A stretch of 64,000 nucleotides of DNA, taken from contig CAVPHV010000017.1 in NCBI GenBank assembly GCA_963704825.1, positions 167,325 through 231,324 of the forward strand, in the 5' to 3' direction. Shown here piece by piece: positions 97 to 28,286 of this stretch. The stretch is from an uncultured Acidimicrobiia bacterium. Its GTDB lineage: Bacteria > Actinomycetota > Acidimicrobiia > Spongiisociales > UBA5794. The notes under the pieces were generated by a model, which was not told the DNA's origin, did no database searches, and saw only the letters and a list, made by a program, of their open reading frames with translations. The stretch's first letter is position 1, and every line of letters starts with the position of its first letter. Made by a program: the position numbers and the translations under genes.

Positions 97-173
97 ATGG
101 CCGCCGTAGGTTGCTCGGGTTGACCGGCGCCGACCGATACGGCGGCGGGCGTCGAGGACAATCTGTCGAGGAA

Positions 174-1526
174 ATGGGGCAAACGATGAGGCGAAGACTG
201 GCGGTCGTTGGTGTTGGGGCGAGCTTGGCGACGCTCGCGCTGGCTTCTCCGGCACTTGCGCAGGAGGAGATCAGCGCAGAGGCGGTCCAAGTCACGCTGG
301 ACAACATCTGGATCCTGATTGCGGCGGTGTTGGTCATCTTCATGCAGGCAGGGTTCGCGCTCGTTGAAGCCGGACTCACTCGGGCCAAGAGCGTCGCCAA
401 CATCATGATGAAGAACCTGATGGACTTCTCGGTGGGGGTGCTCGCCTTTGCCCTCGTTGGTTTTGCCATCGCCTTTGGCTCGGGCAACAGTCTCTTCGGC
501 ACCGAAGGGTGGCTGCTGAATCCCAACGTGTTCACCGAGGGATACTTCGGCACGCTCACCCTCCCGACCTTTTTTGTATTCCAGGTTGCTTTCGCCGCGA
601 CGGCCGCGACGATCGTCTCCGGAGCGATGGCGGAGCGTACGAAGTTCAAGAGTTACTTCGTCTACAGCTTCTTCATAACTGCGCTGATCTACCCGGTCGT
701 CGTGCACTGGTTGTGGGGAGGAGGCTGGCTGGCCGAACTTTCGACGCCGATGATCGACTTCGCCGGTTCGACGATCGTGCACAGCGTTGGCGGCTGGGCC
801 GCGCTCATGGGAGCGCTCATTCTCGGCCCTCGCATCGGCAAGTACGACAAGGATGGCAAGCCGCGAGCCATTCCCGGTCATTCGATCCCGTTCGCGATCA
901 TCGGCGTATTCATCCTGTTCGTCGGCTGGTTCGGGTTCAATCCTGGGTCCGAGCTTGCGGCGGATTTGGCAGTCGGCTCGATTGCCCTGACCACGCTGAT
1001 CGCCGGTGCGGCCGGTGGCGTGTTCGCAACGATCACGGTTTGGTTGAAGACGGGGGTTCCGGATGTGGCGATGGCGGGCAACGGTGTCCTCGCCGGGCTC
1101 GTCGGTATCACGGCCGGCACGGCCAACGTCGCAAACTGGGGCGCCTTCATCATCGGGGCCCTCGCTGGGGTTCTCGTCGTGTTCTCGGTGTTCTTCATCG
1201 ATCGGCGCGGCGTTGACGATCCGGTTGGTGCCATCTCCGTCCATGGAGTCTGCGGGGCCTTTGGCACCCTGATGGTCGGGTTGCTCGCAACTGAGGGTGG
1301 CCTTTTCTACGGCGACGGGTTCGATCAGTTGTTGACGCAGCTGATCGGGGTGGTGGCCGTATTCCTGTTCGTGACGATCACGGCCGGATTGCTGTTCCTC
1401 GCCATCAAGGCGACGATAGGGCTTCGGGTTCCCGCCGATGAAGAGCTGGCCGGTCTCGATGTGATCGAGCACGGCGCTCCCGGGTACGGTCCAGACGTTT
1501 CCGCCATGGCTTCGGCCGCGGGCTGA
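174..1526 (+). CDS. amtB: Ammonium transporter (Amt family)
   Basis: Multi-TM protein with a signal-like N-terminus. The strong Amt-family similarity is recalled, not searched. It lies immediately upstream of glnK, the classic amtB-glnK arrangement. Start chosen at the ATG at 174 (alternative 186); the ORF track extends it to a TTG at 111. Confidence 0.9.
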   Translation: MGQTMRRRLAVVGVGASLATLALASPALAQEEISAEAVQVTLDNIWILIAAVLVIFMQAGFALVEAGLTRAKSVANIMMKNLMDFSVGVLAFALVGFAIAFGSGNSLFGTEGWLLNPNVFTEGYFGTLTLPTFFVFQVAFAATAATIVSGAMAERTKFKSYFVYSFFITALIYPVVVHWLWGGGWLAELSTPMIDFAGSTIVHSVGGWAALMGALILGPRIGKYDKDGKPRAIPGHSIPFAIIGVFILFVGWFGFNPGSELAADLAVGSIALTTLIAGAAGGVFATITVWLKTGVPDVAMAGNGVLAGLVGITAGTANVANWGAFIIGALAGVLVVFSVFFIDRRGVDDPVGAISVHGVCGAFGTLMVGLLATEGGLFYGDGFDQLLTQLIGVVAVFLFVTITAGLLFLAIKATIGLRVPADEELAGLDVIEHGAPGYGPDVSAMASAAG

Positions 1527-1540
1527 GAGGAGTAGCGAGA

Positions 1541-1879
1541 ATGAAACTGGTTACCGCAGTCATCAAACCGCACATGGTCGATCAGGTCAAAGATGCACTA
1601 CGCGCCGTCGGTGTCCAGGGGATAACCGTCACCGAGGTCAAGGGATTTGGACGCCAGGGCGGACACAGCGAAACGTACCGGGGAGCCGAGTACAAGATCG
1701 ACTTCACCCCGAAGATGAAACTGGAGATCCTGGTTGACACCGAGGACGTGTCGAGCGTCACCGCCGTGATCCAGACGACCGCAGGCACCGGCCAGATCGG
1801 GGATGGGAAGATTTGGGTTACTCCCGTCGAGGCGGTTGTCCGGATCCGTACCGGGGAGAAAGGCAAAGACGCGATTTGA
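1541..1879 (+). CDS. glnK: Nitrogen regulatory protein P-II
   Basis: 112 aa, MKLVTAVIKP...GFGRQGG...TGEKGKDAI; canonical P-II including the T-loop Tyr (RGAEYKIDF). 14 nt downstream of amtB. Confidence 0.93.
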   Translation: MKLVTAVIKPHMVDQVKDALRAVGVQGITVTEVKGFGRQGGHSETYRGAEYKIDFTPKMKLEILVDTEDVSSVTAVIQTTAGTGQIGDGKIWVTPVEAVVRIRTGEKGKDAI

Positions 1880-1884
1880 GCGTC

Positions 1885-1917
1885 GGGGGCTGGGTGCCGA
1901 AGCGGTGCTCAGCCCCC
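1885..1917. terminator. GC-rich hairpin between the convergent glnK and glnD 3' ends (candidate bidirectional terminator)
   Basis: gggggctg (1885-1892) pairs with cagccccc (1910-1917); 8-bp stem, 17-nt loop. It overlaps the glnD stop codon. Confidence 0.3.
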
Positions 1918-4317
1918 GAGGCGGTCGCGCAGGCGGCCCACCAGGGCGGTCAACTCGGGTCCGGTTCGGATCGGGACACCAAGTCGGCGCACGTAGAAGA
2001 CATCGCGCGCCTGGCCGCCCATCGTGTCGACCCGCGCCAGGTGGATGTCGAGGCCCTCTCCGTGCAGTGCCTCGACGATTCTGGTGAGTAGACCGAACCC
2101 GTCTTGCGCCCTCACCTCGATCACCGTGAATTGGCCCGCCTCGTGTCCCCGCACCTCGAATGCGCTCCTTTTCTGCCCGTCGACTCGGTAGGCGAGGGTC
2201 TTCTCGCTGATCTTGGTCTGCAGTGCATGTTGGTCGGAGAGCAGCGCAAGCAAACTGGCAAGAAGTCGGTCCCACCGATCCGGCGCTACCACTCCTTTGG
2301 TGAGTTCATCCCGCACGCGGAACGTATCGAGAACGACGCCATCCGACCGGGTGCGCAGGCGGGCTTCCATCACCTCGACACCGTTGGCCGTGAAGGCGCG
2401 GGTCACGGCGAGCAGGAATCCAGACCGATCTTCTCCGACAACCAGCACGCGACCAGGGTCGTCGGGGTCAACGGACACTTGGGCCGGCCTTTCAAGGACA
2501 GACGTCATCTCGATATGCCAGACGACGTCGCGCGGCGTCGCCGCGTCGAGGTACTCGGCCGCCATTGCGGCCACGTGCTCCTCGATGGCGCGACGGTCGA
2601 GCGTCGGTCCTGCGGTCGCCACGATGGCGTCGATGTCGGGGGTGGCGCGCGGCGCGCTGCCTGCAGTGATTGCCGTGCTCACCTTGCTGTATAGGTCGTG
2701 CAACAAAGCCGCCCGCCACTCGTTCCACATAGTCGTTCCGGTGGCCCGCAGATCCGCAATAGTCAGGAGATACAGCACGTTGAGGCGATGGAGGTCTCCG
2801 ATCTGGGTCGCCACCTCGTCGATGACGGCTGGGTCTGCGGTGTCCCTCCTGGTCGCGGTCTCCGAGAGCAGCAAGTGGAGGCGAACGGCATCGGTGACTG
2901 CCCCGATCGTTGCGGGACCGTAGCCGACGCGTCGCATGAAGCTCGCGGTGAGGTCAGCACCGACGATCTGGTGATTGCCGCCACGCGCTTTGCCGATGTC
3001 GTGCAAGAAGGCGGCGAGCAACAACTCCTCTGTCGATCCGACCTCGTCGGCCAGGGCACCGGTTTCGTCATGGCTTGCGATCAGACCGAGCATCTCGTCG
3101 ACGGTTCGCCACAGATGGGCACCAACTGGGTGGTCGTGAAACGGTGCAAGTTGTGGAGCCGTCGCCACCGGGCCCCATTCCGGGAACTCCCGATCGACCC
3201 AGCCCAGCTCCTCGAGGCGTCCGAAGATCGCTCTGCCTCTTGGGCCTCCAGACAGGAGGGTCACGAACGCAGCGCGATCGTCGGCCGACCATTTGCCCAC
3301 TGAAGCTGCCCGCACCACCTCTGCTTCACCTCGCGTGAGGCTGGCGCCGTTGCGGCGGCCCGCCGCTCTCACCGCGATGGCGAGAACGCCCGTCTCGCTG
3401 CTGGTCGCCTCGCCTGATGCCGAGAAGCGGCTTCGGATGGTGGCGAAGACCCGCCGGCCGAACCCTGCGAGGGGAGTTCGGTCGACATGGAGGTCCGGCC
3501 AGCGCCTATCGGCAAGCCGATCACCGGTATCGAGGGCTGTGGTCATGTCGGCTGCGAGCGAGTACACATCTGTCTCGAGCCAGCGCGCAGCCGAATCGCG
3601 CAGGTCCACCACGAATCGGTCCATGGCCCGGCCGGCTGCGGCGTGGAGGGCATTGCGAATCGACAGCAGGCTGGCTCGGGCTTCAACCTCTTCTTGTCCG
3701 GGCACGTCGACGTCGAGACCGATGAGTTCTGCACGCCGCCGCTCCCACCAGAAGCCCTGGTGGGTCCGCAGTGCACCTCGGCCTTCCTTCACGTCTGCCG
3801 TCATGGTGGGGTACGGCTCGACAACCCGACGCTCCCGTTCCTGCGCCACGAGCCGCGAACTCAGCGGATGCGTGCGAACCAGATCCGCGACCGTTGCCAT
3901 GAGGTCGGCGAACAGTTCCTCGTCACCGGCCACCAAACGGGCCGACAGAAGCGAAGTGAGGGTATCCAGGCGATCACCGCCGGCGTCTCGACTCTCGGCA
4001 ACGGTTCGCACCGCGTGGCCGACCTTCAGATTGGCGTCCCAGAGGGGATAGAGAACCGTTCGGATCAGAGACTCGGGGTCGCCGCCTCGATGCAGCAGCA
4101 TGACGTCGATGTCCGACCAGAGGCATTGTTCCTCACGCCCATACCCGCCGAGGGCAACGACGGCTGCGTCGGAGCCGACATCAACCGCAAGCTCACGCAG
4201 GGCTGAATCGAGGCTGTTGCTGAGGGCGGCACAGGTGTCGAGTCCACCGTCCCCAATCCGCTCATGGGCGAGCCGGCGACGGAGGTCGAGGAAGGGTTCG
4301 AGGGGTGGGAGAGTCAG
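1909..4317 (-). CDS. glnD: [Protein-PII] uridylyltransferase/uridylyl-removing enzyme GlnD (start codon unresolved)
   Basis: HD domain (AAFLHDIGKARG...) and C-terminal ACT domains. The ATG-based ORF begins at 4101 inside the nucleotidyltransferase domain. The frame stays open up to the TAG at 4420-4422 and encodes the conserved NTase motif VVALGGYGREEQCLWSDIDVMLLH upstream of 4101. There is no ATG/GTG/TTG in that stretch; a CTG lies at 4317. Confidence 0.85.
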   Translation of the reverse strand: MTLPPLEPFLDLRRRLAHERIGDGGLDTCAALSNSLDSALRELAVDVGSDAAVVALGGYGREEQCLWSDIDVMLLHRGGDPESLIRTVLYPLWDANLKVGHAVRTVAESRDAGGDRLDTLTSLLSARLVAGDEELFADLMATVADLVRTHPLSSRLVAQERERRVVEPYPTMTADVKEGRGALRTHQGFWWERRRAELIGLDVDVPGQEEVEARASLLSIRNALHAAAGRAMDRFVVDLRDSAARWLETDVYSLAADMTTALDTGDRLADRRWPDLHVDRTPLAGFGRRVFATIRSRFSASGEATSSETGVLAIAVRAAGRRNGASLTRGEAEVVRAASVGKWSADDRAAFVTLLSGGPRGRAIFGRLEELGWVDREFPEWGPVATAPQLAPFHDHPVGAHLWRTVDEMLGLIASHDETGALADEVGSTEELLLAAFLHDIGKARGGNHQIVGADLTASFMRRVGYGPATIGAVTDAVRLHLLLSETATRRDTADPAVIDEVATQIGDLHRLNVLYLLTIADLRATGTTMWNEWRAALLHDLYSKVSTAITAGSAPRATPDIDAIVATAGPTLDRRAIEEHVAAMAAEYLDAATPRDVVWHIEMTSVLERPAQVSVDPDDPGRVLVVGEDRSGFLLAVTRAFTANGVEVMEARLRTRSDGVVLDTFRVRDELTKGVVAPDRWDRLLASLLALLSDQHALQTKISEKTLAYRVDGQKRSAFEVRGHEAGQFTVIEVRAQDGFGLLTRIVEALHGEGLDIHLARVDTMGGQARDVFYVRRLGVPIRTGPELTALVGRLRDRLGG

Positions 4318-4419
4318 CGCGGGCTCCCAACCAAGATCGGGGCAGCAATGTGGGTGCCGGAGCTGAAGTGGATCGGGGTTTCCATGGGGGTTGCACCGTA
4401 TTCGTTCAGGGGTGCCGGG

Positions 4420-5406
4420 CTATTCCAGTTCCCAGATGAGTGGGACGATTCGGTGTGTGCCATCGAGTCCCTTGAGTGACACGGCCATCGGTTCACCGAA
4501 CTCGAAGCCGTGATCGCCCGCCAGTTCTGCGGTAACGGCAGAAGCCATGATCTCGCCTCCCTCAGCTGCGGCGGCGATGCGTGCCGCTTTGTTCACCGTC
4601 AATCCGAAGTAGTCGCCCTCGGCATGGAGTACATCTCCCGAGTGCAGCCCGACTCGGACGCTGAAGTCGACGACGGGAGATGCTGTGGCGACCGCCCGCT
4701 GAATCTTCACCGCGGCAGACAGACCGCCACGGGCAGATGCGAATGTGTACATCCCGCCATCACCGAGCGTCTTGACCACGGTGCCGCCTTCCGCCTCGAC
4801 GATCCGTCGCAGCGCGTCGAAATGGGATCGCAACACTGCCGACCAGCGTTCGTCACCTATCGCCTGGGAGATCTGCGTCGAATCCGCGATGTCAGTGAAC
4901 ATCACCGTTGCGGTTCCGGCCGAAACGTCCGCTGCGTCCCCGCGATCACCCTCGCCGTCGAGCGAAGACACCAGCGCATCAAGACTCGTCGTCAGCTCAA
5001 ACCCATAGAGGTCCTCGTTCGGGACACCGATCGAGTTGTGCATCTGGATGATGCGCCACGTCCCTGCCTCGAGCAGCAGCACGAAGGTCGACCTCATCAG
5101 CACCGGGTCGCCCAGAGTGGCCATCGCAGACCTCGCGGCAGCCCAACCGACCCGTCCGTCCTCGAACGCCCGGAGATGAGAGAGCTGAAGATGCGGTGAA
5201 GAAAACCCCTCGCGGACCCCGGTCAGCTCGCGCGACTGCTCCTTGCTCACCTCCGAAAGCTCGTTCCGGCCCACCCACCATTCATCTGCATCGGTGCCGA
5301 TGCCCAAGAAGTCGGAGGATGTCGACAGGAGATTGAAGGCGGTCTCGTCGTCGACCCCTGAGAGGTAGCGACGAACCAGCGCCTCGATTTCAGGTGACGG
5401 CTTCAT
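4420..5406 (-). CDS. Class III adenylate/guanylate cyclase with N-terminal NTF2/SnoaL-like domain
   Basis: C-terminal catalytic domain VMFTDIADSTQIS...GLHSGDV...GLTVNKAARI. The N-terminal ~150 aa (EWWVGRNEL...TWRIIQMHNS) look like an NTF2-like fold. Confidence 0.8.
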   Translation of the reverse strand: MKPSPEIEALVRRYLSGVDDETAFNLLSTSSDFLGIGTDADEWWVGRNELSEVSKEQSRELTGVREGFSSPHLQLSHLRAFEDGRVGWAAARSAMATLGDPVLMRSTFVLLLEAGTWRIIQMHNSIGVPNEDLYGFELTTSLDALVSSLDGEGDRGDAADVSAGTATVMFTDIADSTQISQAIGDERWSAVLRSHFDALRRIVEAEGGTVVKTLGDGGMYTFASARGGLSAAVKIQRAVATASPVVDFSVRVGLHSGDVLHAEGDYFGLTVNKAARIAAAAEGGEIMASAVTAELAGDHGFEFGEPMAVSLKGLDGTHRIVPLIWELE

Positions 5407-5552
5407 CAGACGCGATTGTATGCGGCCCAGAGGACCGGCGATTCGGCCTCAGTCGACGGCACAGAGAGCAGCAGGCACGCCGCTTCAAAGATGTGGGGCA
5501 TCGCCCGAGTGGTTGGCCCCCGAGCCGCGCCGAATCCGCTTGAATCGCACCC

Positions 5553-6665
5553 ATGGACAAACGGGCCACCAGCCTCGAGCTCTTCTTCGACCTCGTGTTC
5601 GTGTTCGCCATCACCGAGGTGGCCGGGTTGGTGCACGACGATCTGACCTTCCAAGGTTTTGCCCGCGGCGCCATCGTGATGGCCATCTTGTGGTGGGGGT
5701 GGTCCCAGTTCACGTGGGCTGCCAACGCCATCGACCTCGAACCACGGCGGGTGCGAGCCGTCATCCTCGCCGCCATGGGGGTGGCCCTGATCATGGCGCA
5801 GTCGGTGCCCACCGCGTTCGTCGATGGGGGTCTCTGGCTCGCCGTCGGCTATGCCGCCCTGCGTGGGCTCGGCCTCTGGCAGTACTGGGTCGGCACCGAG
5901 GACGACGCGGGAACGAGGCAAGCGCTGTTGCCGTTCATCCGGTGGTCGTCGCTCGGGCCCGCAGTGATGATCCTTGGTGCCTTCCTCGACACCCCGGCGC
6001 GCAGCATCATATGGGTCATTGCGCTCGGGCTCGAGATCCTGGCCGCATCGCGCGCCGGGCGCGGGCCGTGGACGATCAACGCCGGCCACTTTGCGGAACG
6101 CCACGGCCTCATCGTGATCATCGCCCTTGGCGAAACCATCGTGGCCGTCGGTCTCGGCGCCTCCGATCGGCTGCCATCGTTCGAGGTTGCCGCGGTCTTG
6201 CTCATTGCACTCGCCGGCAGTTGCATCCTGTGGTGGGCCTACTTCGACTGGCTGGCCGACTTGTGGGAGGGCGAGCTCAAGCTCGTTTCCGCCGACCAGG
6301 CCGGTAGCTACGCCCGCGACGTGTACTCCTTCCTCCACTACCCAATGATCAGCGGCATCGTGCTCTACGCCCTCGCCGCCGAGGAGATGGTGGCGCATCC
6401 CGAGGAGGCCCTCACTTCCGGCGCCCAGTTCGCCCTTGGTCTGGCTTTGGCGCTCTATCTCGGCGGGCAGGTGCTGGCCACCTATCGCAGCAGCCGCCGC
6501 ATTCTGTGGGATCGCGTCGCAGCGGGGGCGGTGCTTCCCGTCGTCATCCTGTTGACCGGCTCGTTGGCGGCACCCTGGACGATCGGGATCGTGATGGGGC
6601 TGCTCCTGGCGGCCCTGGTCGTCGAACACGTAGGGCGTCGCGGCCGGGTCCCCGCGGCCACCTGA
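5553..6665 (+). CDS. Low-temperature-requirement A (LtrA) family membrane protein
   Basis: N-terminus MDKRATSLELFFDLVFVFAITE is the LtrA-family signature; multi-TM. The opposite-strand ORF 5406..6674 is a GC-shadow frame. Confidence 0.75.
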   Translation: MDKRATSLELFFDLVFVFAITEVAGLVHDDLTFQGFARGAIVMAILWWGWSQFTWAANAIDLEPRRVRAVILAAMGVALIMAQSVPTAFVDGGLWLAVGYAALRGLGLWQYWVGTEDDAGTRQALLPFIRWSSLGPAVMILGAFLDTPARSIIWVIALGLEILAASRAGRGPWTINAGHFAERHGLIVIIALGETIVAVGLGASDRLPSFEVAAVLLIALAGSCILWWAYFDWLADLWEGELKLVSADQAGSYARDVYSFLHYPMISGIVLYALAAEEMVAHPEEALTSGAQFALGLALALYLGGQVLATYRSSRRILWDRVAAGAVLPVVILLTGSLAAPWTIGIVMGLLLAALVVEHVGRRGRVPAAT

Positions 6666-6681
6666 GGACAACACGCCCGAG

Positions 6682-24522: not shown

Positions 24523-27120
24523 TCAATTCTCCGGGTCGGGGACCACCGGCGGCGGGTAGCGCAACGCTGCCTGGGCCGCGGCGAGGCGCGCGATGGGGAT
24601 ACGGGGCGGGCCGCACGACACGTAGTCGACGCCCGCACGGTGGAAGAACTCAATCGATGCTGGGTCGCCACCGTGTTCGCCACACACCCCGATATCGAGC
24701 CCGGGATTGACCCGCAGCCCCTCTTCGATGGCGATCTCAATCAATCGACCAACGCCGTCGGGATCGATGGTGCGGAACGGATTGTGAACCAGGATGCCCT
24801 GTTCGAGATAGTCCCGCAGGAAGGCCTCTTCCGCATCGTCGCGGCTCAGACCGAGCGTGGTCTGGGTGAGGTCGTTGGTCCCGAATGAGAAGAAGTCGGA
24901 GCCGAGGGCGATGTCGCCTGCCACCAGCGCGGTCCGGGGCAGCTCAATCATGGTGCCGATCGCCAATTCGAGGAGCCGGCCCGCGTAGTGGAGCTCCTCT
25001 TCGATCATGTCCCTGACGAGGAACAGCTCCTCGGGCAGGCCAACGAGCGGGATCATCAACTCCAGGCGCGGGTCACCTCCCGCGTCGAGGCGGCGCCGTA
25101 CGGCTTCGAGCGCCGCCAGCACCTGGACCCGGTAGATCTCGGGGATGACTACGGCGAGGCGCACCCCGCGCAGGCCGAGCATCGGATTCGACTCCTCGTG
25201 CCAACCGAGGGAGGCCTCGAGTCGTTCGAGATCCTCGGTGGGGAGGCCCTGATCGCGTCGCAACTGGAGGTCGTGCTCGACATCGAGGCGGTCGGGGAGG
25301 AACTCGTGGAGTGGCGGGTCGAGCAGGCGGACCACGACGGGCATCCCGTCCATCGCCTCGAGGAGTCGTTCGAAGTCACCGATCTGGAGTTGCTCGAGTT
25401 CGGCCAAAGCCGCGGCGCGTTCCCCCGGGTCGGCTCCCAGCAAGATCTGCTGGACGACGGCAAGCCGGTCGCCGGCGAACATGTACTCGGTTCTGGCCAA
25501 ACCGATTCCCTCGGCGCCGGCGCGGCGAGCCACGATGGCGTCCTCCGGCGTGTCGGCGTTGGCCCAGACCTCGAGGCGGCGCACCTCGTCGGCCCACTCC
25601 AGCAGCCGCTCGAGCGAGGGTGAGCGCACCGGGGGCTCGATCGCCAGCGAACCGGCGTAGACGTTTCCGGTTGAGCCATCGATGGTGATGGTGTCGCCGG
25701 CTCCGAAGCTGCGGCCGGCGATCGACATCTGCCGGCGCTCGAGGTCGATGGTCGCGTTGCCGATTCCCGCAACGGCCGGAGTCCCGATGCCGCGTGCTAC
25801 GACAACGCCGTGCGAGGTGCCCCCGCCGTGGGTGGCGAGCAGACCGGCGGCAACCCGGACGCCGGCGACGTCCTCCGGCAGGGCCTCCCGGGTGACCAGG
25901 ATCACCGAGCGGCCCGCGCTGGCGGCATCAACTGCGGCGTCGGCGTCAAAGACCATTTCGCCTGCCGCGGCACCCGGCGATGCCGCGGCGCCCGTCGCCA
26001 GCGGGGTGGGGAGAAGATGCGGGGCCAAGTGGGGGTGGAGCATCCCGTCGAGTTGTTCCGGGTCGATCCGGAGCATGGCCTCGGCCTTGGTTAGCAGCCC
26101 TTCGTCGACCATGTCCACAGCCGAGCGCACCGCTCCCTGGGGCGCCTGCTCGGCACGCCGAGCCTCCACCAGCCAGAGTTCGCCGCGTTCTCTGACGAAT
26201 TCGACGCGCACCACCTCCCGCCTGGCCTGCTCGAGCGCACCGAGGGCGCCGATGAGGTTGCGGTGGGAGACGTGGTCTGCGGTATCGAGGTCGGCGATCC
26301 CCGGATAGAGCAGCTGGGACTTTGGTCGGCTCGCCCCGTCGACGTAGATCCCGCCCGGCATCGGATGGCCGTCGACCGGGTCGCGGCTGAAGGCAACTCC
26401 GGTGCCGCTTCCCCCCGGTGCGTTGCCGAAGACCATGAGATGGGCGACCGCGGCGGTCCCGAGATCGTCGAGGATGCCGCGCTGACGCCGATACTGACGG
26501 GCCGGACGGCGATCCCACGACTCGAACACTGCTTCGACGGCTTCACGCGCTTGCGCCTCGAGCGTCGCCGGGAGGGGGCGTTGCGACTCCTCCACGATCA
26601 GCGCAGCCATGGCATCACCGGCGGCAACGAGTCCGGCTGTATCGAGCTCGGCAGGGTCCTCGGCCCCGCGGGTCTGGCACACTTCGGCCATCACCCTTTC
26701 GATACGGTGGCGCGGCACCCGCCGTACCGTCCTGGCGAACCCTTGAAGGAAGCGGCGCCGGACGTCTGCGGCAAACTCCTCAGAACCCCACTCGATCAAC
26801 GCCGGGTAGGAGTCGTCGGTCACTCCGACGTAGAGCACGGTCCCCATCACCCCCGGCATCGGAACCGTCGGGCTGGCGCGCACCGCGAGCAGCGGCGGCC
26901 GGTTGCCGGCGGCGACATGGCTGAGGTGAGCAACGACCTGGTCCCAGGTATCGCCGGGAAGATCGCCGGTCTGCAAGAAGCGGCGGCAGGCCACCGCGCT
27001 GATGCTGCAGCCGGGCGGGACCGGCAAGCCCATTGCAGTCATCTCCGTCAGCGCCCGGCCGCGGTCGCCGATCAACTCTGGGTCGGCATTTGCTTCGTCG
27101 AAACCCCAGACGTACTGCAT
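24523..27120 (-). CDS. ppdK: Pyruvate, phosphate dikinase
   Basis: 865 aa. N-terminal ATP-grasp (MQYVWGFDEANAD...LTEMTAMGLPVPPG), central GGTSHGVVVARGIGTPAVAG phospho-His domain, C-terminal PEP-utilising TNDLTQTTLGLSRDD. Confidence 0.9.
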   Translation of the reverse strand: MQYVWGFDEANADPELIGDRGRALTEMTAMGLPVPPGCSISAVACRRFLQTGDLPGDTWDQVVAHLSHVAAGNRPPLLAVRASPTVPMPGVMGTVLYVGVTDDSYPALIEWGSEEFAADVRRRFLQGFARTVRRVPRHRIERVMAEVCQTRGAEDPAELDTAGLVAAGDAMAALIVEESQRPLPATLEAQAREAVEAVFESWDRRPARQYRRQRGILDDLGTAAVAHLMVFGNAPGGSGTGVAFSRDPVDGHPMPGGIYVDGASRPKSQLLYPGIADLDTADHVSHRNLIGALGALEQARREVVRVEFVRERGELWLVEARRAEQAPQGAVRSAVDMVDEGLLTKAEAMLRIDPEQLDGMLHPHLAPHLLPTPLATGAAASPGAAAGEMVFDADAAVDAASAGRSVILVTREALPEDVAGVRVAAGLLATHGGGTSHGVVVARGIGTPAVAGIGNATIDLERRQMSIAGRSFGAGDTITIDGSTGNVYAGSLAIEPPVRSPSLERLLEWADEVRRLEVWANADTPEDAIVARRAGAEGIGLARTEYMFAGDRLAVVQQILLGADPGERAAALAELEQLQIGDFERLLEAMDGMPVVVRLLDPPLHEFLPDRLDVEHDLQLRRDQGLPTEDLERLEASLGWHEESNPMLGLRGVRLAVVIPEIYRVQVLAALEAVRRRLDAGGDPRLELMIPLVGLPEELFLVRDMIEEELHYAGRLLELAIGTMIELPRTALVAGDIALGSDFFSFGTNDLTQTTLGLSRDDAEEAFLRDYLEQGILVHNPFRTIDPDGVGRLIEIAIEEGLRVNPGLDIGVCGEHGGDPASIEFFHRAGVDYVSCGPPRIPIARLAAAQAALRYPPPVVPDPEN

Positions 27121-27170
27121 GGGCCCAGTTAAGCCTGTTGTGGGGCCCGGCGGCGAGACGAAGCTTCTCG

Positions 27171-28286
27171 CTACACGGGGATGCGGATCCTCACGGTGGT
27201 TCCGATGCCGGTTGCGCTCACGACGGTGGCTTCGCCACCGGCGCGCGAGGCCCGAGTCCTGATGTTCTCGAGTCCCATGCCGGTGGTGGGTGCGGTCGGG
27301 TCGAACCCGGTGCCCTCGTCGGCGATGCTGAGCATGATTTCGTCGCGATCGCGTCGAATCGAAACATGGATGTTGTCGGTGTCGGCGTGGCGCAGAGCGT
27401 TGCTGACCGCCTCGCTGATCAACTGCAGCGCGTCGTCCACCATGGTGGGCGGCAGGTCGTCGAGCTGCCCATCGAATGTCATCTGGGCCACCGTGGGATA
27501 CGGTTCGGCGAGATGGCCGATCAGATCGGACACTTCGGCCCGCAGGTCACGCCGGGACCACACCGGAGGGCGCAGGTCGAAGATGAAGCGCCTGAGCGAT
27601 GCGATGGTTTCGTCGAGGCGTTCGACGGTCTCGGCGATGACTCTGGCGACTTCGGGTTCGACCACCTTCTGGGTTTGCGCCTGGAGCGAGAGCCCGACGG
27701 CGAAGAGGTCCTGGATGATGGCATCGTGGAGGTCGCGTGCGATTCGCTCTCGGTCTTCGACGATGGCGAGGCGGCGCAGCCTGCGCTGCATTCGTGCCGT
27801 GTTGATGGCGGATCCGGCGATGACGGCGATCCCCTCGACCAACCGCTCGTCCTGAACGGTGAAGCCGTGTTCCTTCTCGGTGAGGTAGAGGTTGCCGTAG
27901 ACTTCAGAACCGAGTCGCACCGGCACTCCCAGGAAGGTGTCCATGGTGGGGTGGTGCGCCGGGAACCCGAAGGCCTCGGGGTGATCGGCGATGCTGTCGG
28001 TCCGCACCGTCTGTGCCTTCCGGGCGAGCATGCCGAGCAGTCCGAGCCCCTCGGGCTCGTGGCCGATGGCTTCGGCAACGTCGGGTGGCACCCCGAGATA
28101 GAGGAACTCGAGCAGTCCGCCGTCCTCGTCGAGCACCCCGAGCGCGCCATATTGGGCGCCGGTGAGCTCCATCGCGGTCTCGATGGTGGTGTACAAGACC
28201 GACGTGAGGTCGGTTTGGCCGGCGACCGCGGCTGCCCCCTCGACGAGCTGCCGGAAGCGATCCGCCGGCAGCGGGGTCACATCCAT
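27171..28286 (-). CDS. GAF-domain sensor histidine kinase (HisKA_3/NarL-type partner)
   Basis: N-terminal GAF domain, then a dimerisation/His region (IARDLHDAIIQDLFAVGLSL) and a HATPase_c. Cytoplasmic, no TM. Divergent from the LuxR-family regulator. Confidence 0.85.
   Translation of the reverse strand: MDVTPLPADRFRQLVEGAAAVAGQTDLTSVLYTTIETAMELTGAQYGALGVLDEDGGLLEFLYLGVPPDVAEAIGHEPEGLGLLGMLARKAQTVRTDSIADHPEAFGFPAHHPTMDTFLGVPVRLGSEVYGNLYLTEKEHGFTVQDERLVEGIAVIAGSAINTARMQRRLRRLAIVEDRERIARDLHDAIIQDLFAVGLSLQAQTQKVVEPEVARVIAETVERLDETIASLRRFIFDLRPPVWSRRDLRAEVSDLIGHLAEPYPTVAQMTFDGQLDDLPPTMVDDALQLISEAVSNALRHADTDNIHVSIRRDRDEIMLSIADEGTGFDPTAPTTGMGLENIRTRASRAGGEATVVSATGIGTTVRIRIPV

What the first reader, a model, noticed from the sequence alone, without database searches (positions are those of the whole stretch)
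4099..4422. glnD has no canonical start codon: conserved NTase motif is encoded upstream of the first ATG, in frame with a TAG that ends the upstream adenylate cyclase gene
The codons between the cyclase TAG (4420-4422) and the ATG at 4101 translate to ...LAHERIGDGGLDTCAALSNSLDSALRELAVDVGSDAAVVALGGYGREEQCLWSDIDVMLLH. This is the GlnD nucleotidyltransferase motif, so the gene must start upstream of 4101. Yet no ATG/GTG/TTG exists in that frame; only a CTG at 4317 and ATT/ATA codons. Possible explanations are a rare CTG/ATT initiation, a sequencing error that destroyed the start, or a point mutation. glnD is also convergent to amtB-glnK, whereas the three are normally co-directional in Actinobacteria.
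Basis: seen in the sequence. Interest (0 to 1): 0.55.

Follow-up and report, generated by a model that had tools for sequence, protein, structure and literature searches.

The report
Conserved CTG start codon of glnD
The nitrogen-sensor gene glnD of this Acidimicrobiia bacterium most likely starts at a rare CTG codon behind a good ribosome-binding site; ten related lineages keep the same arrangement, so it is a selected feature that gene callers misread, not an error.

Summary
On the minus strand the glnD frame is open from the cyclase TAG (4422-4420) to ATG 4101 with no ATG/GTG/TTG, and the catalytic nucleotidyltransferase motif (GGYGR...SDID, 4149-4102) lies upstream of that ATG. Comparison with relatives resolves it. 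The annotated Met/Val of most ~800-aa orthologues aligns, to within a few codons, with CTG 4317-4315. Ten independently assembled lineages (about 57-99% protein identity) carry CTG at that column, usually as GGAG-N6-CTG-A. Silent sites among them are saturated, and none of 61 invariant-Leu columns keeps CTG in all seven lineages tested. Protein-coding conservation begins at the CTG (amino-acid identity 0.64 downstream, 0.09 upstream). Two lineages have in-frame stops 6 and 11 codons upstream. Sequencing error, recent mutation, pseudogene, a truncated protein from ATG 4101 and fusion to the cyclase are all rejected. The best explanation is SD-directed initiation at CUG giving an 802-aa GlnD, probably kept weak by selection. 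The convergent amtB-glnK / glnD layout is a clade-wide inversion. A short upstream ORF ending in the CTGA overlap occurs in all ten lineages but is not convincingly above chance. All evidence is comparative; no proteomic or ribosome-profiling data were available.

The parts
1909..4317 (-). glnD coding sequence as re-defined here: CTG 4317-4315 to stop 1911-1909, 802 aa
   Evidence: Orthologue lengths are about 800-804 aa and their start aligns with the CTG. All seven clearest CTG lineages give 802-809 aa from the CTG. The best NCBIfam hits are all [protein-PII] uridylyltransferase models. The AF2 model has mean pLDDT 88.
4315..4317 (-). Proposed initiation codon CTG (CUG)
   Evidence: It is the same codon at the same alignment column in ten lineages. 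CTG makes up 33% of Leu codons in these genes, and 0 of 61 invariant-Leu columns keep CTG in all seven lineages tested. Coding conservation starts here.
4324..4328 (-). Shine-Dalgarno-like GGGAG, 6 nt before the CTG
   Evidence: The only invariant upstream bases across the seven clearest lineages are GG.G at -11 to -8. The motif is GGAG-N6 in seven of ten lineages, GGGG in two and AGG in one. Distant relatives have GGGAG-N6-GTG (L003, L005). Strict GGAG sites precede only 7 of 46 long ORFs in the window.
4102..4149 (-). Nucleotidyltransferase catalytic motif GGYGREEQCLWSDIDV (residues 57-72 counted from the CTG)
   Evidence: G57, Y59, G60, R61, C65, S68, D69 and D71 are invariant in 27 orthologues. 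Sub-threshold Pfam hits to DUF294 and NTP_transf_2 cover residues 39-90 and vanish if the protein starts at ATG 4101. In the model, beta1 is 51-55 and beta2 is 70-76.
4099..4101 (-). ATG used by gene callers (730-aa truncated call); an internal Met73, not the start
   Evidence: P0001 and P0002 (730 aa) and P0062 (731 aa) were called at this ATG. This residue is Leu in L143 and L145.
4314..4385 (-). Candidate 23-codon upstream ORF (METPIHFSSGTHIAAPILVGSPR*) whose TGA overlaps the CTG as CTGA; status uncertain
   Evidence: An ATG- or GTG-initiated ORF of 13-36 codons in the +1 frame, ending at the CTGA, is present in 10 of 10 CTG lineages. Shuffles give about 0.3 per locus, canonical-start controls show similar ORFs, the peptides are not conserved, and most lack an SD or -10 box.
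4420..5406 (-). Upstream SnoaL_3 + class III nucleotidyl cyclase gene; its TAG (4422-4420) happens to be in the glnD frame
   Evidence: Pfam matches PF13474 and PF00211. Upstream neighbours differ in L001, L137, L138 and L139.
2845..3057 (-). HD domain of GlnD
   Evidence: Pfam PF01966, E = 5e-07, residues 455-525 of the stop-to-stop translation.
2011..2448 (-). Two C-terminal ACT domains of GlnD
   Evidence: Pfam ACT and ACT-like hits at residues 658-705 and 762-803 of the stop-to-stop translation. The model shows beta-alpha-beta-beta-alpha-beta units and matches solved ACT structures.
1541..1879 (+). glnK (P-II), convergent with glnD; T-loop Tyr51 present
   Evidence: Pfam PF00543, E = 2.5e-30. 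The translation shows ...GAEY51K.... The convergent layout is present in 13 of 13 close relatives.
111..1526 (+). amtB (ammonium transporter); its exact start is uncertain
   Evidence: Pfam PF00909, E = 3.7e-121. The 99% relative was called at 446 aa, against 471 aa from TTG 111.

Best explanation
glnD is an intact, functional gene whose translation begins at CTG 4317-4315. Initiator fMet-tRNA reads this near-cognate CUG, positioned by the Shine-Dalgarno sequence GGGAG (4328-4324) six nucleotides upstream. The product is an 802-aa GlnD (GlnE-like nucleotidyltransferase domain, HD domain, two ACT domains) that modifies GlnK on Tyr51. The CTG is not an accident of this genome: it is held by purifying selection in a subclade of Acidimicrobiia in which glnD was inverted out of the ancestral amtB-glnK-glnD operon. 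CUG is an inefficient initiator (about 1-2% of AUG in E. coli). I infer that the weak codon, paired with a good SD, keeps this catalytic sensor enzyme at a low level, as the AUU starts of infC and pcnB do in E. coli. Shown here: the position of the start, conservation of the codon and the SD, and the onset of coding constraint. Inferred: that CUG is actually decoded as the start, and the reason it is kept weak.
For: (1) Most ~800-aa orthologues start with Met or Val at, or within a few codons of, the column of the window's CTG: L-TLPPLEPFLDLR against, for example, M-TANPLTPFLNLR. (2) DNA of ten lineages (window/L002, L001, L136, L137, L138, L139, L140, L143, L144, L145; about 57-99% protein identity to the window; different samples and assemblers) has CTG at that column, always followed by A. 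(3) The lineages are saturated at silent sites: 2.9% of fourfold-degenerate sites are identical in all seven lineages tested. CTG is only 33% of Leu codons, and 0 of 61 invariant-Leu columns keep CTG in all seven. (4) GGAG or GGGG sits 5-7 nt upstream in nine of ten lineages and is the only conserved upstream block. Distant relatives have the same GGGAG-N6 before a GTG. (5) Amino-acid identity is 0.64 for codons +2 to +72 and 0.09 for -30 to -1. Nucleotide identity by codon position is 0.74/0.81/0.45 downstream and 0.31/0.27/0.27 upstream. (6) In-frame stops lie 6 codons (L139) and 11 codons (L140) upstream of the CTG. The window and L138 have no canonical in-frame start before Met73. (7) Residues 1-72 are part of the confidently modelled catalytic core and include the invariant G57, G60, D69 and D71. 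(8) The window and L002 differ at 57 mismatches and 3 gaps over 9.1 kb, yet are identical around the start. (9) The GlnK substrate site Tyr51 is intact.
Against: There is no direct evidence of initiation (no N-terminal peptide, Ribo-seq or reporter data). In the only actinobacterial system tested without bias, M. smegmatis, CTG was not enriched as an SD-led start (0.03%; PMC4633059), so efficient use of CUG would be unusual. Three of the ten lineages have a canonical codon nearby that could serve instead: L143 has TTG at -8, L144 has GTG at +2 and TTG at -11, and L145 has GTG at -1. I chose which lineages to fetch because they had Leu at this column or odd gene calls, so '10 of 10' is conditional on Leu. 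Within the same subclade some lineages have ATG or GTG at or next to the column (P0010, P0007, P0049), so the constraint is not absolute. The low-expression rationale is an inference by analogy.
Confidence: 0.8

Rival explanations
1. Termination-reinitiation coupling: a short upstream ORF (ATG 4385 to TGA 4316-4314, +1 frame) is translated. Ribosomes terminating at the UGA of the CUGA overlap re-initiate on the CUG, which compensates for the weak codon. GlnD still starts at the CTG, but its expression depends on the upstream ORF.
For: A +1-frame ORF of 13-36 codons with an ATG or GTG start, ending at the CTGA overlap, exists in all ten CTG lineages. Mononucleotide shuffles give such an ORF in only about 0.23-0.35 of trials per locus, for the seven lineages tested. 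Between the window and L001 the upstream ORF's ATG is kept and the single indel inside it is 3 nt. RTGA-type coupling of small upstream ORFs is described in mycobacteria (PMC4633059). The upstream ORF in L144 has its own GGGAG-N6-ATG.
Against: I set the criterion after seeing the data. Canonical-start controls (L003, L005, L141) also show open +1 frames with start codons, in L003 and L005 even across the 3' end of glnK. The peptides are unrelated and their lengths vary. Most candidate starts have neither an SD nor a TANNNT box at a leaderless distance. The A after the CTG is explained by a conserved Thr or Ile second codon, which ATG-start orthologues share.
Confidence: 0.1
2. Translation starts at ATG 4101 (the database call), giving a 730-aa protein without the nucleotidyltransferase active site. 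The upstream 72 codons are an untranslated remnant.
For: It is the first canonical codon in the frame, and gene callers chose it for P0001, P0002 and P0062.
Against: Codons +2 to +72 show strong protein-level constraint across saturated lineages (0.64 amino-acid identity; a clear third-position pattern). They contain the invariant catalytic residues. Met73 is Leu in L143 and L145. ATG 4101 sits inside beta2 of the fold.
Confidence: 0.03
3. Artefact or decay: a sequencing or assembly error, or a recent point mutation, destroyed an ATG/GTG start, so glnD here is a fresh pseudogene.
For: CTG is one substitution away from ATG, GTG or TTG, and metagenome assemblies do contain errors.
Against: The same CTG occurs in ten independent assemblies spanning about 57-99% protein identity. 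The reading frame is intact at 802-809 aa with conserved domains in all seven lineages checked. GlnK Tyr51 is intact.
Confidence: 0.02
4. The start lies further upstream, by another route: initiation at ATA 4401, read-through of the cyclase TAG to give a cyclase-GlnD fusion, or a frameshift from the ATG 4385 frame into the glnD frame.
For: The frame is open back to the TAG, and ATG 4385 exists in the +1 frame.
Against: The upstream in-frame peptide is unconserved (0.09 identity). ATA 4401 has no SD and is absent from L001. L139 and L140 have in-frame stops 6 and 11 codons upstream. Upstream neighbours differ and are divergent genes in L137, L138 and L139. Orthologues are not longer at the N-terminus.
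Confidence: 0.02

Closest known systems
infC (IF3) AUU start codon in E. coli and many other bacteria (established knowledge, recalled from memory: Butler, Springer and Grunberg-Manago 1987)
   Same: A near-cognate, inefficient initiation codon is conserved across species at the start of a regulatory or low-abundance protein. It is preceded by an SD and maintained by selection, not drift.
   Different: The codon is AUU, not CUG. For infC the logic is demonstrated: IF3 discriminates against its own non-canonical start, giving autoregulation. For glnD no regulatory loop is known or tested.
pcnB (poly(A) polymerase I) AUU start in E. coli (from memory: Binns and Masters 2002)
   Same: A weak start codon is used to cap the level of an enzyme that is needed in small amounts. 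This is the closest analogue for the proposed function.
   Different: The gene, codon and phylum all differ, and expression limitation was shown by mutagenesis there but not here.
Canonical actinobacterial GlnD of the GlnR-controlled amtB-glnK-glnD operon (Streptomyces, Mycobacterium; PMC10704036)
   Same: The domain architecture (nucleotidyltransferase, HD, two ACT domains), the linkage to amtB-glnK, and a GlnK with Tyr51.
   Different: Here glnD is inverted and convergent with glnK, so it cannot be co-transcribed with amtB-glnK. It starts with CTG. Its scores fall below the NCBIfam equivalog cut-offs.
RTGA-coupled small upstream ORFs of mycobacteria (Shell et al. 2015, PMC4633059)
   Same: A short ORF whose stop overlaps the start of the downstream gene in a four-base NTGA overlap.
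   Different: There the downstream start is ATG or GTG and the small ORFs are leaderless, with mapped transcription start sites and ribosome footprints. Here the start is CTG and the upstream ORF has no independent support.
Measured CUG initiation in E. coli (Hecht et al., bioRxiv 10.1101/063800)
   Same: It shows that CUG is one of four near-cognate codons that initiate detectably, at about 1-2% of AUG, and that CTG is occasionally annotated as a start.
   Different: Those are reporter constructs, not a natural gene conserved across a clade.

Membership tests
GlnD, [protein-PII] uridylyl/adenylyltransferase | N-terminal pol-beta-type nucleotidyltransferase motif hG[GS]-x9-13-DhD | tested here: met
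   ALGGYGREEQCLWSDIDV. G57, G60, D69 and D71 are invariant in 27 orthologues. Sub-threshold DUF294 and NTP_transf_2 hits cover residues 39-90. The fold matches GlnE domains 1v4a and 3k7d and DrrA.
GlnD, [protein-PII] uridylyl/adenylyltransferase | Central HD domain and two C-terminal ACT domains | tested here: met
   Pfam HD at 5e-07, ACT at 2e-09, and a second ACT-like hit at 1.7e-05. The model shows both ACT folds.
GlnD, [protein-PII] uridylyl/adenylyltransferase | Score above NCBIfam equivalog cut-offs (TIGR01693, PRK03381) | tested here: not met
   416.6 bits against a cut-off of 519.4, and 345.1 against 631. All top hits are GlnD models, so this is a divergent family member and not a strict equivalog by NCBI's criteria.
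GlnD, [protein-PII] uridylyl/adenylyltransferase | Genomic linkage to glnK/amtB, and a GlnK with a modifiable T-loop Tyr51 | tested here: met
   amtB and glnK are adjacent, Tyr51 is present, and the linkage is conserved in 13 of 13 close relatives, though convergent.
GlnD, [protein-PII] uridylyl/adenylyltransferase | Uridylylation or adenylylation of P-II in response to glutamine | not testable with these tools
   Needs an enzyme assay.
Genes with a conserved near-cognate (non-ATG/GTG/TTG) initiation codon | Protein-coding constraint begins at the near-cognate codon and not upstream of it | tested here: met
   Amino-acid identity is 0.64 downstream and 0.09 upstream. The codon-position pattern is 0.74/0.81/0.45 downstream and flat at about 0.3 upstream.
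Genes with a conserved near-cognate (non-ATG/GTG/TTG) initiation codon | No canonical in-frame alternative that would preserve the conserved N-terminus | tested here: met
   The window and L138 have none before Met73. L139 and L140 have stops at -6 and -11, and their next canonical codons are at +9 and +31. L001, L136 and L137 have none between the CTG and the conserved N-terminal block, although L136 and L137 have TTG/GTG far upstream in the unconserved region. This is not met in L143, L144 and L145, which have nearby TTG or GTG codons.
Genes with a conserved near-cognate (non-ATG/GTG/TTG) initiation codon | Codon identity conserved beyond the synonymous expectation, with an SD at a functional spacing | tested here: met
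   CTG is present in 10 of 10 lineages although it is only 33% of Leu codons. 0 of 61 invariant-Leu columns keep CTG in all seven lineages tested. 2.9% of fourfold sites are invariant. GGAG-N6 occurs in seven of ten lineages.
Genes with a conserved near-cognate (non-ATG/GTG/TTG) initiation codon | Direct evidence of initiation (N-terminal peptide, initiation-site ribosome profiling, or mutagenesis) | not testable with these tools
   No expression data are available for these uncultured lineages.
Upstream-ORF termination-reinitiation (NTGA) coupling | Upstream ORF stop overlapping the downstream start | tested here: met
   CTGA is present in 10 of 10 lineages.
Upstream-ORF termination-reinitiation (NTGA) coupling | The upstream ORF is itself a translated unit (own SD or leaderless promoter; presence above chance) | tested here: inconclusive
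   It is present in 10 of 10 lineages against about 0.3 per locus in shuffles. Controls show similar ORFs. Only L144 has a good SD, and TANNNT occurs at a plausible distance in just three lineages. The peptides are unconserved.

The most novel reading that the evidence does not exclude
The CUG is not merely a tolerated weak start but a dedicated control point. After glnD was inverted out of the nitrogen-regulated amtB-glnK-glnD operon, this clade fixed a CUG start whose use depends on translation and termination of a short leader ORF ending in the CUGA overlap (70S reinitiation), on IF3 fidelity, or on both. That would tie the level of the nitrogen sensor to the cell's translational status.
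Probability: 0.12. Interest if true: 0.7.

Novelty: new member of a known kind. Interest (0 to 1): 0.45.

Why it matters
There are three reasons it matters.

1. Annotation. Every public gene call I saw for the ten CTG lineages is wrong at the 5' end. The calls are either truncated to 730-794 aa, and the 730/731-aa calls lose the catalytic aspartates, or they are extended upstream to or past a chance start codon (802-861 aa). Domain-based pipelines would score these organisms as lacking a functional GlnD nucleotidyltransferase.

2. Biology. Conserved CUG initiation in a bacterial housekeeping or regulatory gene is rare. The well-known cases of selected weak starts use AUU (infC, pcnB). In mycobacteria CUG performed very poorly as an SD-led start. 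A CUG held across saturated divergence therefore argues that weak initiation itself is under selection.

3. Evolution. The CTG lineages sit inside a clade defined by inversion of glnD relative to amtB-glnK. This offers a natural example of how a gene's expression signals are rebuilt after it leaves an operon.

Tried and rejected
- Rfam scan of the whole window at gathering thresholds: no family, so no known leader or riboswitch.
- RNA folding of -50 to +30 around the CTG in ten lineages: z-scores from -1.4 to +1.8 and no shared structure, so no conserved hairpin explains the conserved C.
- Motif search in 260 nt upstream of 13 loci, plus a MAFFT alignment of the upstream regions: only the SD and the CTG are shared. 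A GGTGCAACCC..ATGG similarity between the window and L144 is positionally consistent in just two or three lineages.
- Leaderless-promoter test for the upstream ORF (TANNNT 10-18 nt upstream of its start): three weak hits, not convincing.
- Sigma-70 promoter scan of 1500-4800: none found.
- Sequence search of PDB chains with the N-terminal 239 aa: no hit. The fold search was informative instead.
- Test for genome-wide non-canonical starts: seven other ORFs with at least 88 start-less open codons were scanned. Only the PEP-utilising enzyme (24523-27120) looked suspicious, and its ATG 27120 is a normal N-terminus preceded by Arg/His-rich nonsense.
- tRNA scan for an unusual initiator tRNA: no tRNA genes in the window.
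The close clade had to be sampled through 12 single-protein look-ups, so the census of start codons in the clade is incomplete.
None of the searches returned a description of a CTG start for glnD.


Full report
**1. What is in the sequence**

On the minus strand, the frame of the 730-aa ORF 1909-4101 stays open upstream of its ATG (4101-4099) for 106 codons, back to a TAG at 4422-4420. That TAG is the stop of a 328-aa SnoaL_3 + class III nucleotidyl cyclase ORF (4420-5406). No ATG, GTG or TTG occurs in those codons. The near-cognate codons in frame are ATA 4401, CTG 4317, ATT 4257, CTG 4200 and ATC 4110.

The stretch translates to ...LTLPPLEPFLDLRRRLAHERIGDGGLDTCAALSNSLDSALRELAVDVGSDAAVVALGGYGREEQCLWSDIDV-M73. 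The downstream part carries an HD domain and two ACT domains, and all top NCBIfam hits are [protein-PII] uridylyltransferase models, although below their equivalog cut-offs. amtB (111-1526) and glnK (1541-1879) lie on the plus strand and converge on glnD.

A long start-less open stretch is not rare in this 66% GC window. The case rests on homology.

**2. Where orthologues start**

A search with the stop-to-stop translation found 1265 relatives; those that carry a source name are labelled Acidimicrobiia or Actinomycetota. Most orthologues are 798-810 aa. Their annotated Met or Val aligns at, or within a few codons of, the column of the window's CTG 4317. Starting at that CTG gives 802 aa.

The nearest relatives had anomalous calls. 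Some were truncated: P0001 and P0002 at 730 aa, P0062 at 731 aa, P0006 at 778 aa and P0004 at 794 aa. Others ran upstream through a Leu at the start column (P0003, P0005, P0066, P0031).

**3. The DNA of the relatives**

I fetched the contigs for these proteins and read the start column. Ten lineages carry CTG there, and in every one the next base is A.

| Locus (protein) | Protein identity to window | Sequence before and at the start | Notes |
|---|---|---|---|
| Window / L002 (P0001) | 99% | GGGAG cccgcg CTG | No canonical in-frame start before Met73 |
| L001 (P0002) | 85% | GGGAG tacgag CTG | Next canonical in-frame codon is TTG at +42 |
| L136 (P0003) | 68% | GGGGGG ccgag CTG | |
| L139 (P0004) | 68% | ACGGAG ttcctc CTG | In-frame stop 6 codons upstream; next canonical codon TTG at +9 |
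| L137 (P0005) | 66% | CCGGAG accgac CTG | |
| L138 (P0062) | 64% | ACGGAG ttcgat CTG | No canonical in-frame start before Met73 |
| L140 (P0006) | 69% | GGGAG tttcac CTG | In-frame stop 11 codons upstream; next canonical codon TTG at +31 |
| L143 (P0066) | 57% | GGGGGA acgactc CTG | TTG at -8 is a possible alternative |
| L144 (P0031) | 61% | AGG ttcact CTG | GTG at +2 and TTG at -11 are possible alternatives |
| L145 (P0056) | 60% | GGAGG tcgtg CTG | The GTG at -1 lies only 2-3 nt after the SD |

The contigs come from ENA, JGI, Logan and NCBI assemblies of different samples. The window and L002 differ at 57 mismatches and 3 gaps over 9.1 kb. This excludes a sequencing or assembly error and a recent mutation.

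**4. Is this more than chance?**

- Among the seven clearest lineages, only 2.9% of fourfold-degenerate sites in invariant amino-acid columns are identical in all seven. Pairwise identity at those sites is 0.33-0.49, apart from window-L001 at 0.64. Silent sites are therefore saturated.
- CTG accounts for 33% of Leu codons in these genes, and CTC for about 50%.
- Of 61 columns with invariant Leu, four keep one codon in all seven lineages, and none of those is CTG. An ordinary internal Leu would not stay CTG. The nucleotide identity of this codon is under selection.
- Upstream, the only invariant bases are GG.G at -11 to -8. GGAG occurs at about 5 per kb in the window and precedes only 7 of 46 long ORFs at start-like spacing.
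- Distant relatives that start with GTG show the same GGGAG-N6 arrangement (L003, L005).

One caveat applies. I chose these lineages because they had Leu at the column or odd calls, so the relevant null is Leu codon usage, as used above.

**5. Where coding begins**

In the glnD frame, mean pairwise amino-acid identity is 0.64 for codons +2 to +72 and 0.09 for codons -30 to -1. Nucleotide identity by codon position is 0.74/0.81/0.45 downstream and 0.31/0.27/0.27 upstream. The boundary falls at the CTG.

Met73, the database start, is Leu in L143 and L145. Residues 1-72 include the invariant G22, G24, G57, Y59, G60, R61, C65, S68, D69 and D71.

The AlphaFold model (mean pLDDT 88; 81-97 over residues 1-80) places helices at 7-16 and 26-46, beta1 at 51-55 and beta2 at 70-76. 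Its closest solved folds are the GlnE adenylyltransferase domains (1v4a, 3k7d), DrrA, nucleotidyltransferase-plus-HD tRNA enzymes, and ACT domains. The weak Pfam nucleotidyltransferase hits (residues 39-90) disappear if the protein is started at ATG 4101. A 730-aa product would lack the active site, and the region is clearly translated.

**6. The upstream context is not conserved**

The cyclase is the upstream neighbour only in the window and L002. L001 has a CLC-like gene there, L137 and L138 have a divergent methyltransferase, and L139 has a divergent thiolase. Being in frame with the cyclase TAG is therefore coincidental. Read-through fusion, and initiation at ATA 4401 (no SD; absent in L001), are both rejected.

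**7. Gene order**

All 13 loci with at least 59% identity over the N-terminal half have glnK on the opposite strand downstream of glnD. Nearly all remoter relatives with a nearby glnK have it on the same strand, 20-360 nt upstream; the one exception is L074. Same-strand glnK upstream is the classic order of the GlnR-controlled amtB-glnK-glnD operon of Streptomyces and mycobacteria (PMC10704036).

The convergent layout is thus a single ancestral inversion shared by the subclade. All CTG lineages lie within it. In a neighbour-joining tree they are interleaved with a few lineages that have ATG or GTG at or next to the column (P0010, P0007, P0049, P0056).

**8. Mechanism**

The best-supported reading is SD-directed initiation at CUG by initiator tRNA, giving an 802-aa GlnD. 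With Thr at position 2, the Met is probably removed.

CUG initiates at about 1-2% of AUG in E. coli (bioRxiv 10.1101/063800). It was not enriched as an SD-led start in M. smegmatis (0.03%; PMC4633059). Any change of the C would create a stronger canonical start, yet the C persists across saturated divergence. I therefore infer selection for weak initiation of a low-abundance sensor enzyme that no longer rides on the amtB-glnK transcript. This is analogous to the AUU starts of infC and pcnB (recalled from memory). That functional step is an inference.

**9. The upstream ORF**

In the +1 frame, an ATG- or GTG-initiated ORF of 13-36 codons ends at the TGA of the CTGA overlap in all ten lineages. 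In the window it runs from 4385 to 4314. Shuffles produce such an ORF in about 0.23-0.35 of trials per locus, which resembles RTGA coupling in mycobacteria.

However, I set the criterion after seeing the data, canonical-start controls show similar ORFs, the peptides are unrelated, and most candidate starts lack an SD or a -10 box. I keep this as a roughly 10% add-on hypothesis.

**10. Negative results**

- No Rfam family and no tRNA gene anywhere in the window.
- No conserved RNA fold around the start.
- No sigma-70-like promoter match in 1500-4800.
- No other convincing non-canonical start among seven ORFs checked.

**11. Verdict**

This is a new, clade-conserved example of a known phenomenon, the near-cognate start codon. 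It has practical consequences for annotation and poses a modest open question about why the start is kept weak. All evidence is comparative, and direct proof of initiation is still needed.

Noticed in passing
window 1541-4317; loci L001, L002, L072, L136-L145 compared with L003, L005, L073, L077 and others: glnK orientation splits cleanly by relatedness. All 13 close relatives (at least 59% identity over the N-terminal half) have a convergent glnK/glnD pair. Nearly all remoter relatives that have a nearby glnK carry the classic same-strand glnK-glnD order. This indicates one ancestral inversion that removed glnD from the amtB-glnK operon.
   Followed up: yes
L142:3100-3135 (contig of P0008): At the orthologous start column this lineage reads GGGAG-cccgac-CGC-ATC-GCC, so it has neither a CTG nor a canonical codon there. 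The options are ATC (spacing 9) or an ATG 41 codons upstream. It may be a second kind of non-canonical glnD start.
   Followed up: partly
window about 4383-4398 (minus strand); L144 about 72 nt upstream of its CTG: GGTGCAACCC(CC)ATGG is shared by the window and L144 (61% protein identity, silent sites saturated), and partly by L001 and L143. It is not found at a consistent position in the other CTG lineages. It could be chance or a small regulatory site.
   Followed up: partly
window 5406-6674 (-) and 5553-6665 (+): A 422-aa minus-strand ORF with no Pfam hit ends 1 nt into the cyclase ATG (a TGATG overlap). It is overlapped antisense by a 370-aa plus-strand ORF that was called as LtrA (PF06772) in the 99% relative L002. 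The coding strand is ambiguous.
   Followed up: no
window 111-1526 (+): The amtB start is uncertain. The first possible start, TTG 111, gives 471 aa, but the 99% relative was called at 446 aa, and the Pfam domain begins at residue 66.
   Followed up: no
window 1868-1884 (-): A terminator-like hairpin (GACGC-tcaaatc-GCGTC followed by a T-rich tail) begins in the 29-nt gap between the convergent glnK and glnD stops and extends into the 3' end of glnK. It may be a shared or bidirectional terminator.
   Followed up: no
window 24523-27546 (-): The PEP-utilising enzyme ORF has 142 start-less open codons upstream, and its PPDK_N match projects upstream of the first ATG. The extension is Arg/His-rich nonsense and ATG 27120 gives a normal N-terminus, so this is not a second non-canonical start.
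   Followed up: yes
window 1-64000: The whole 64-kb window contains no tRNA gene and no Rfam family at gathering thresholds.
   Followed up: yes
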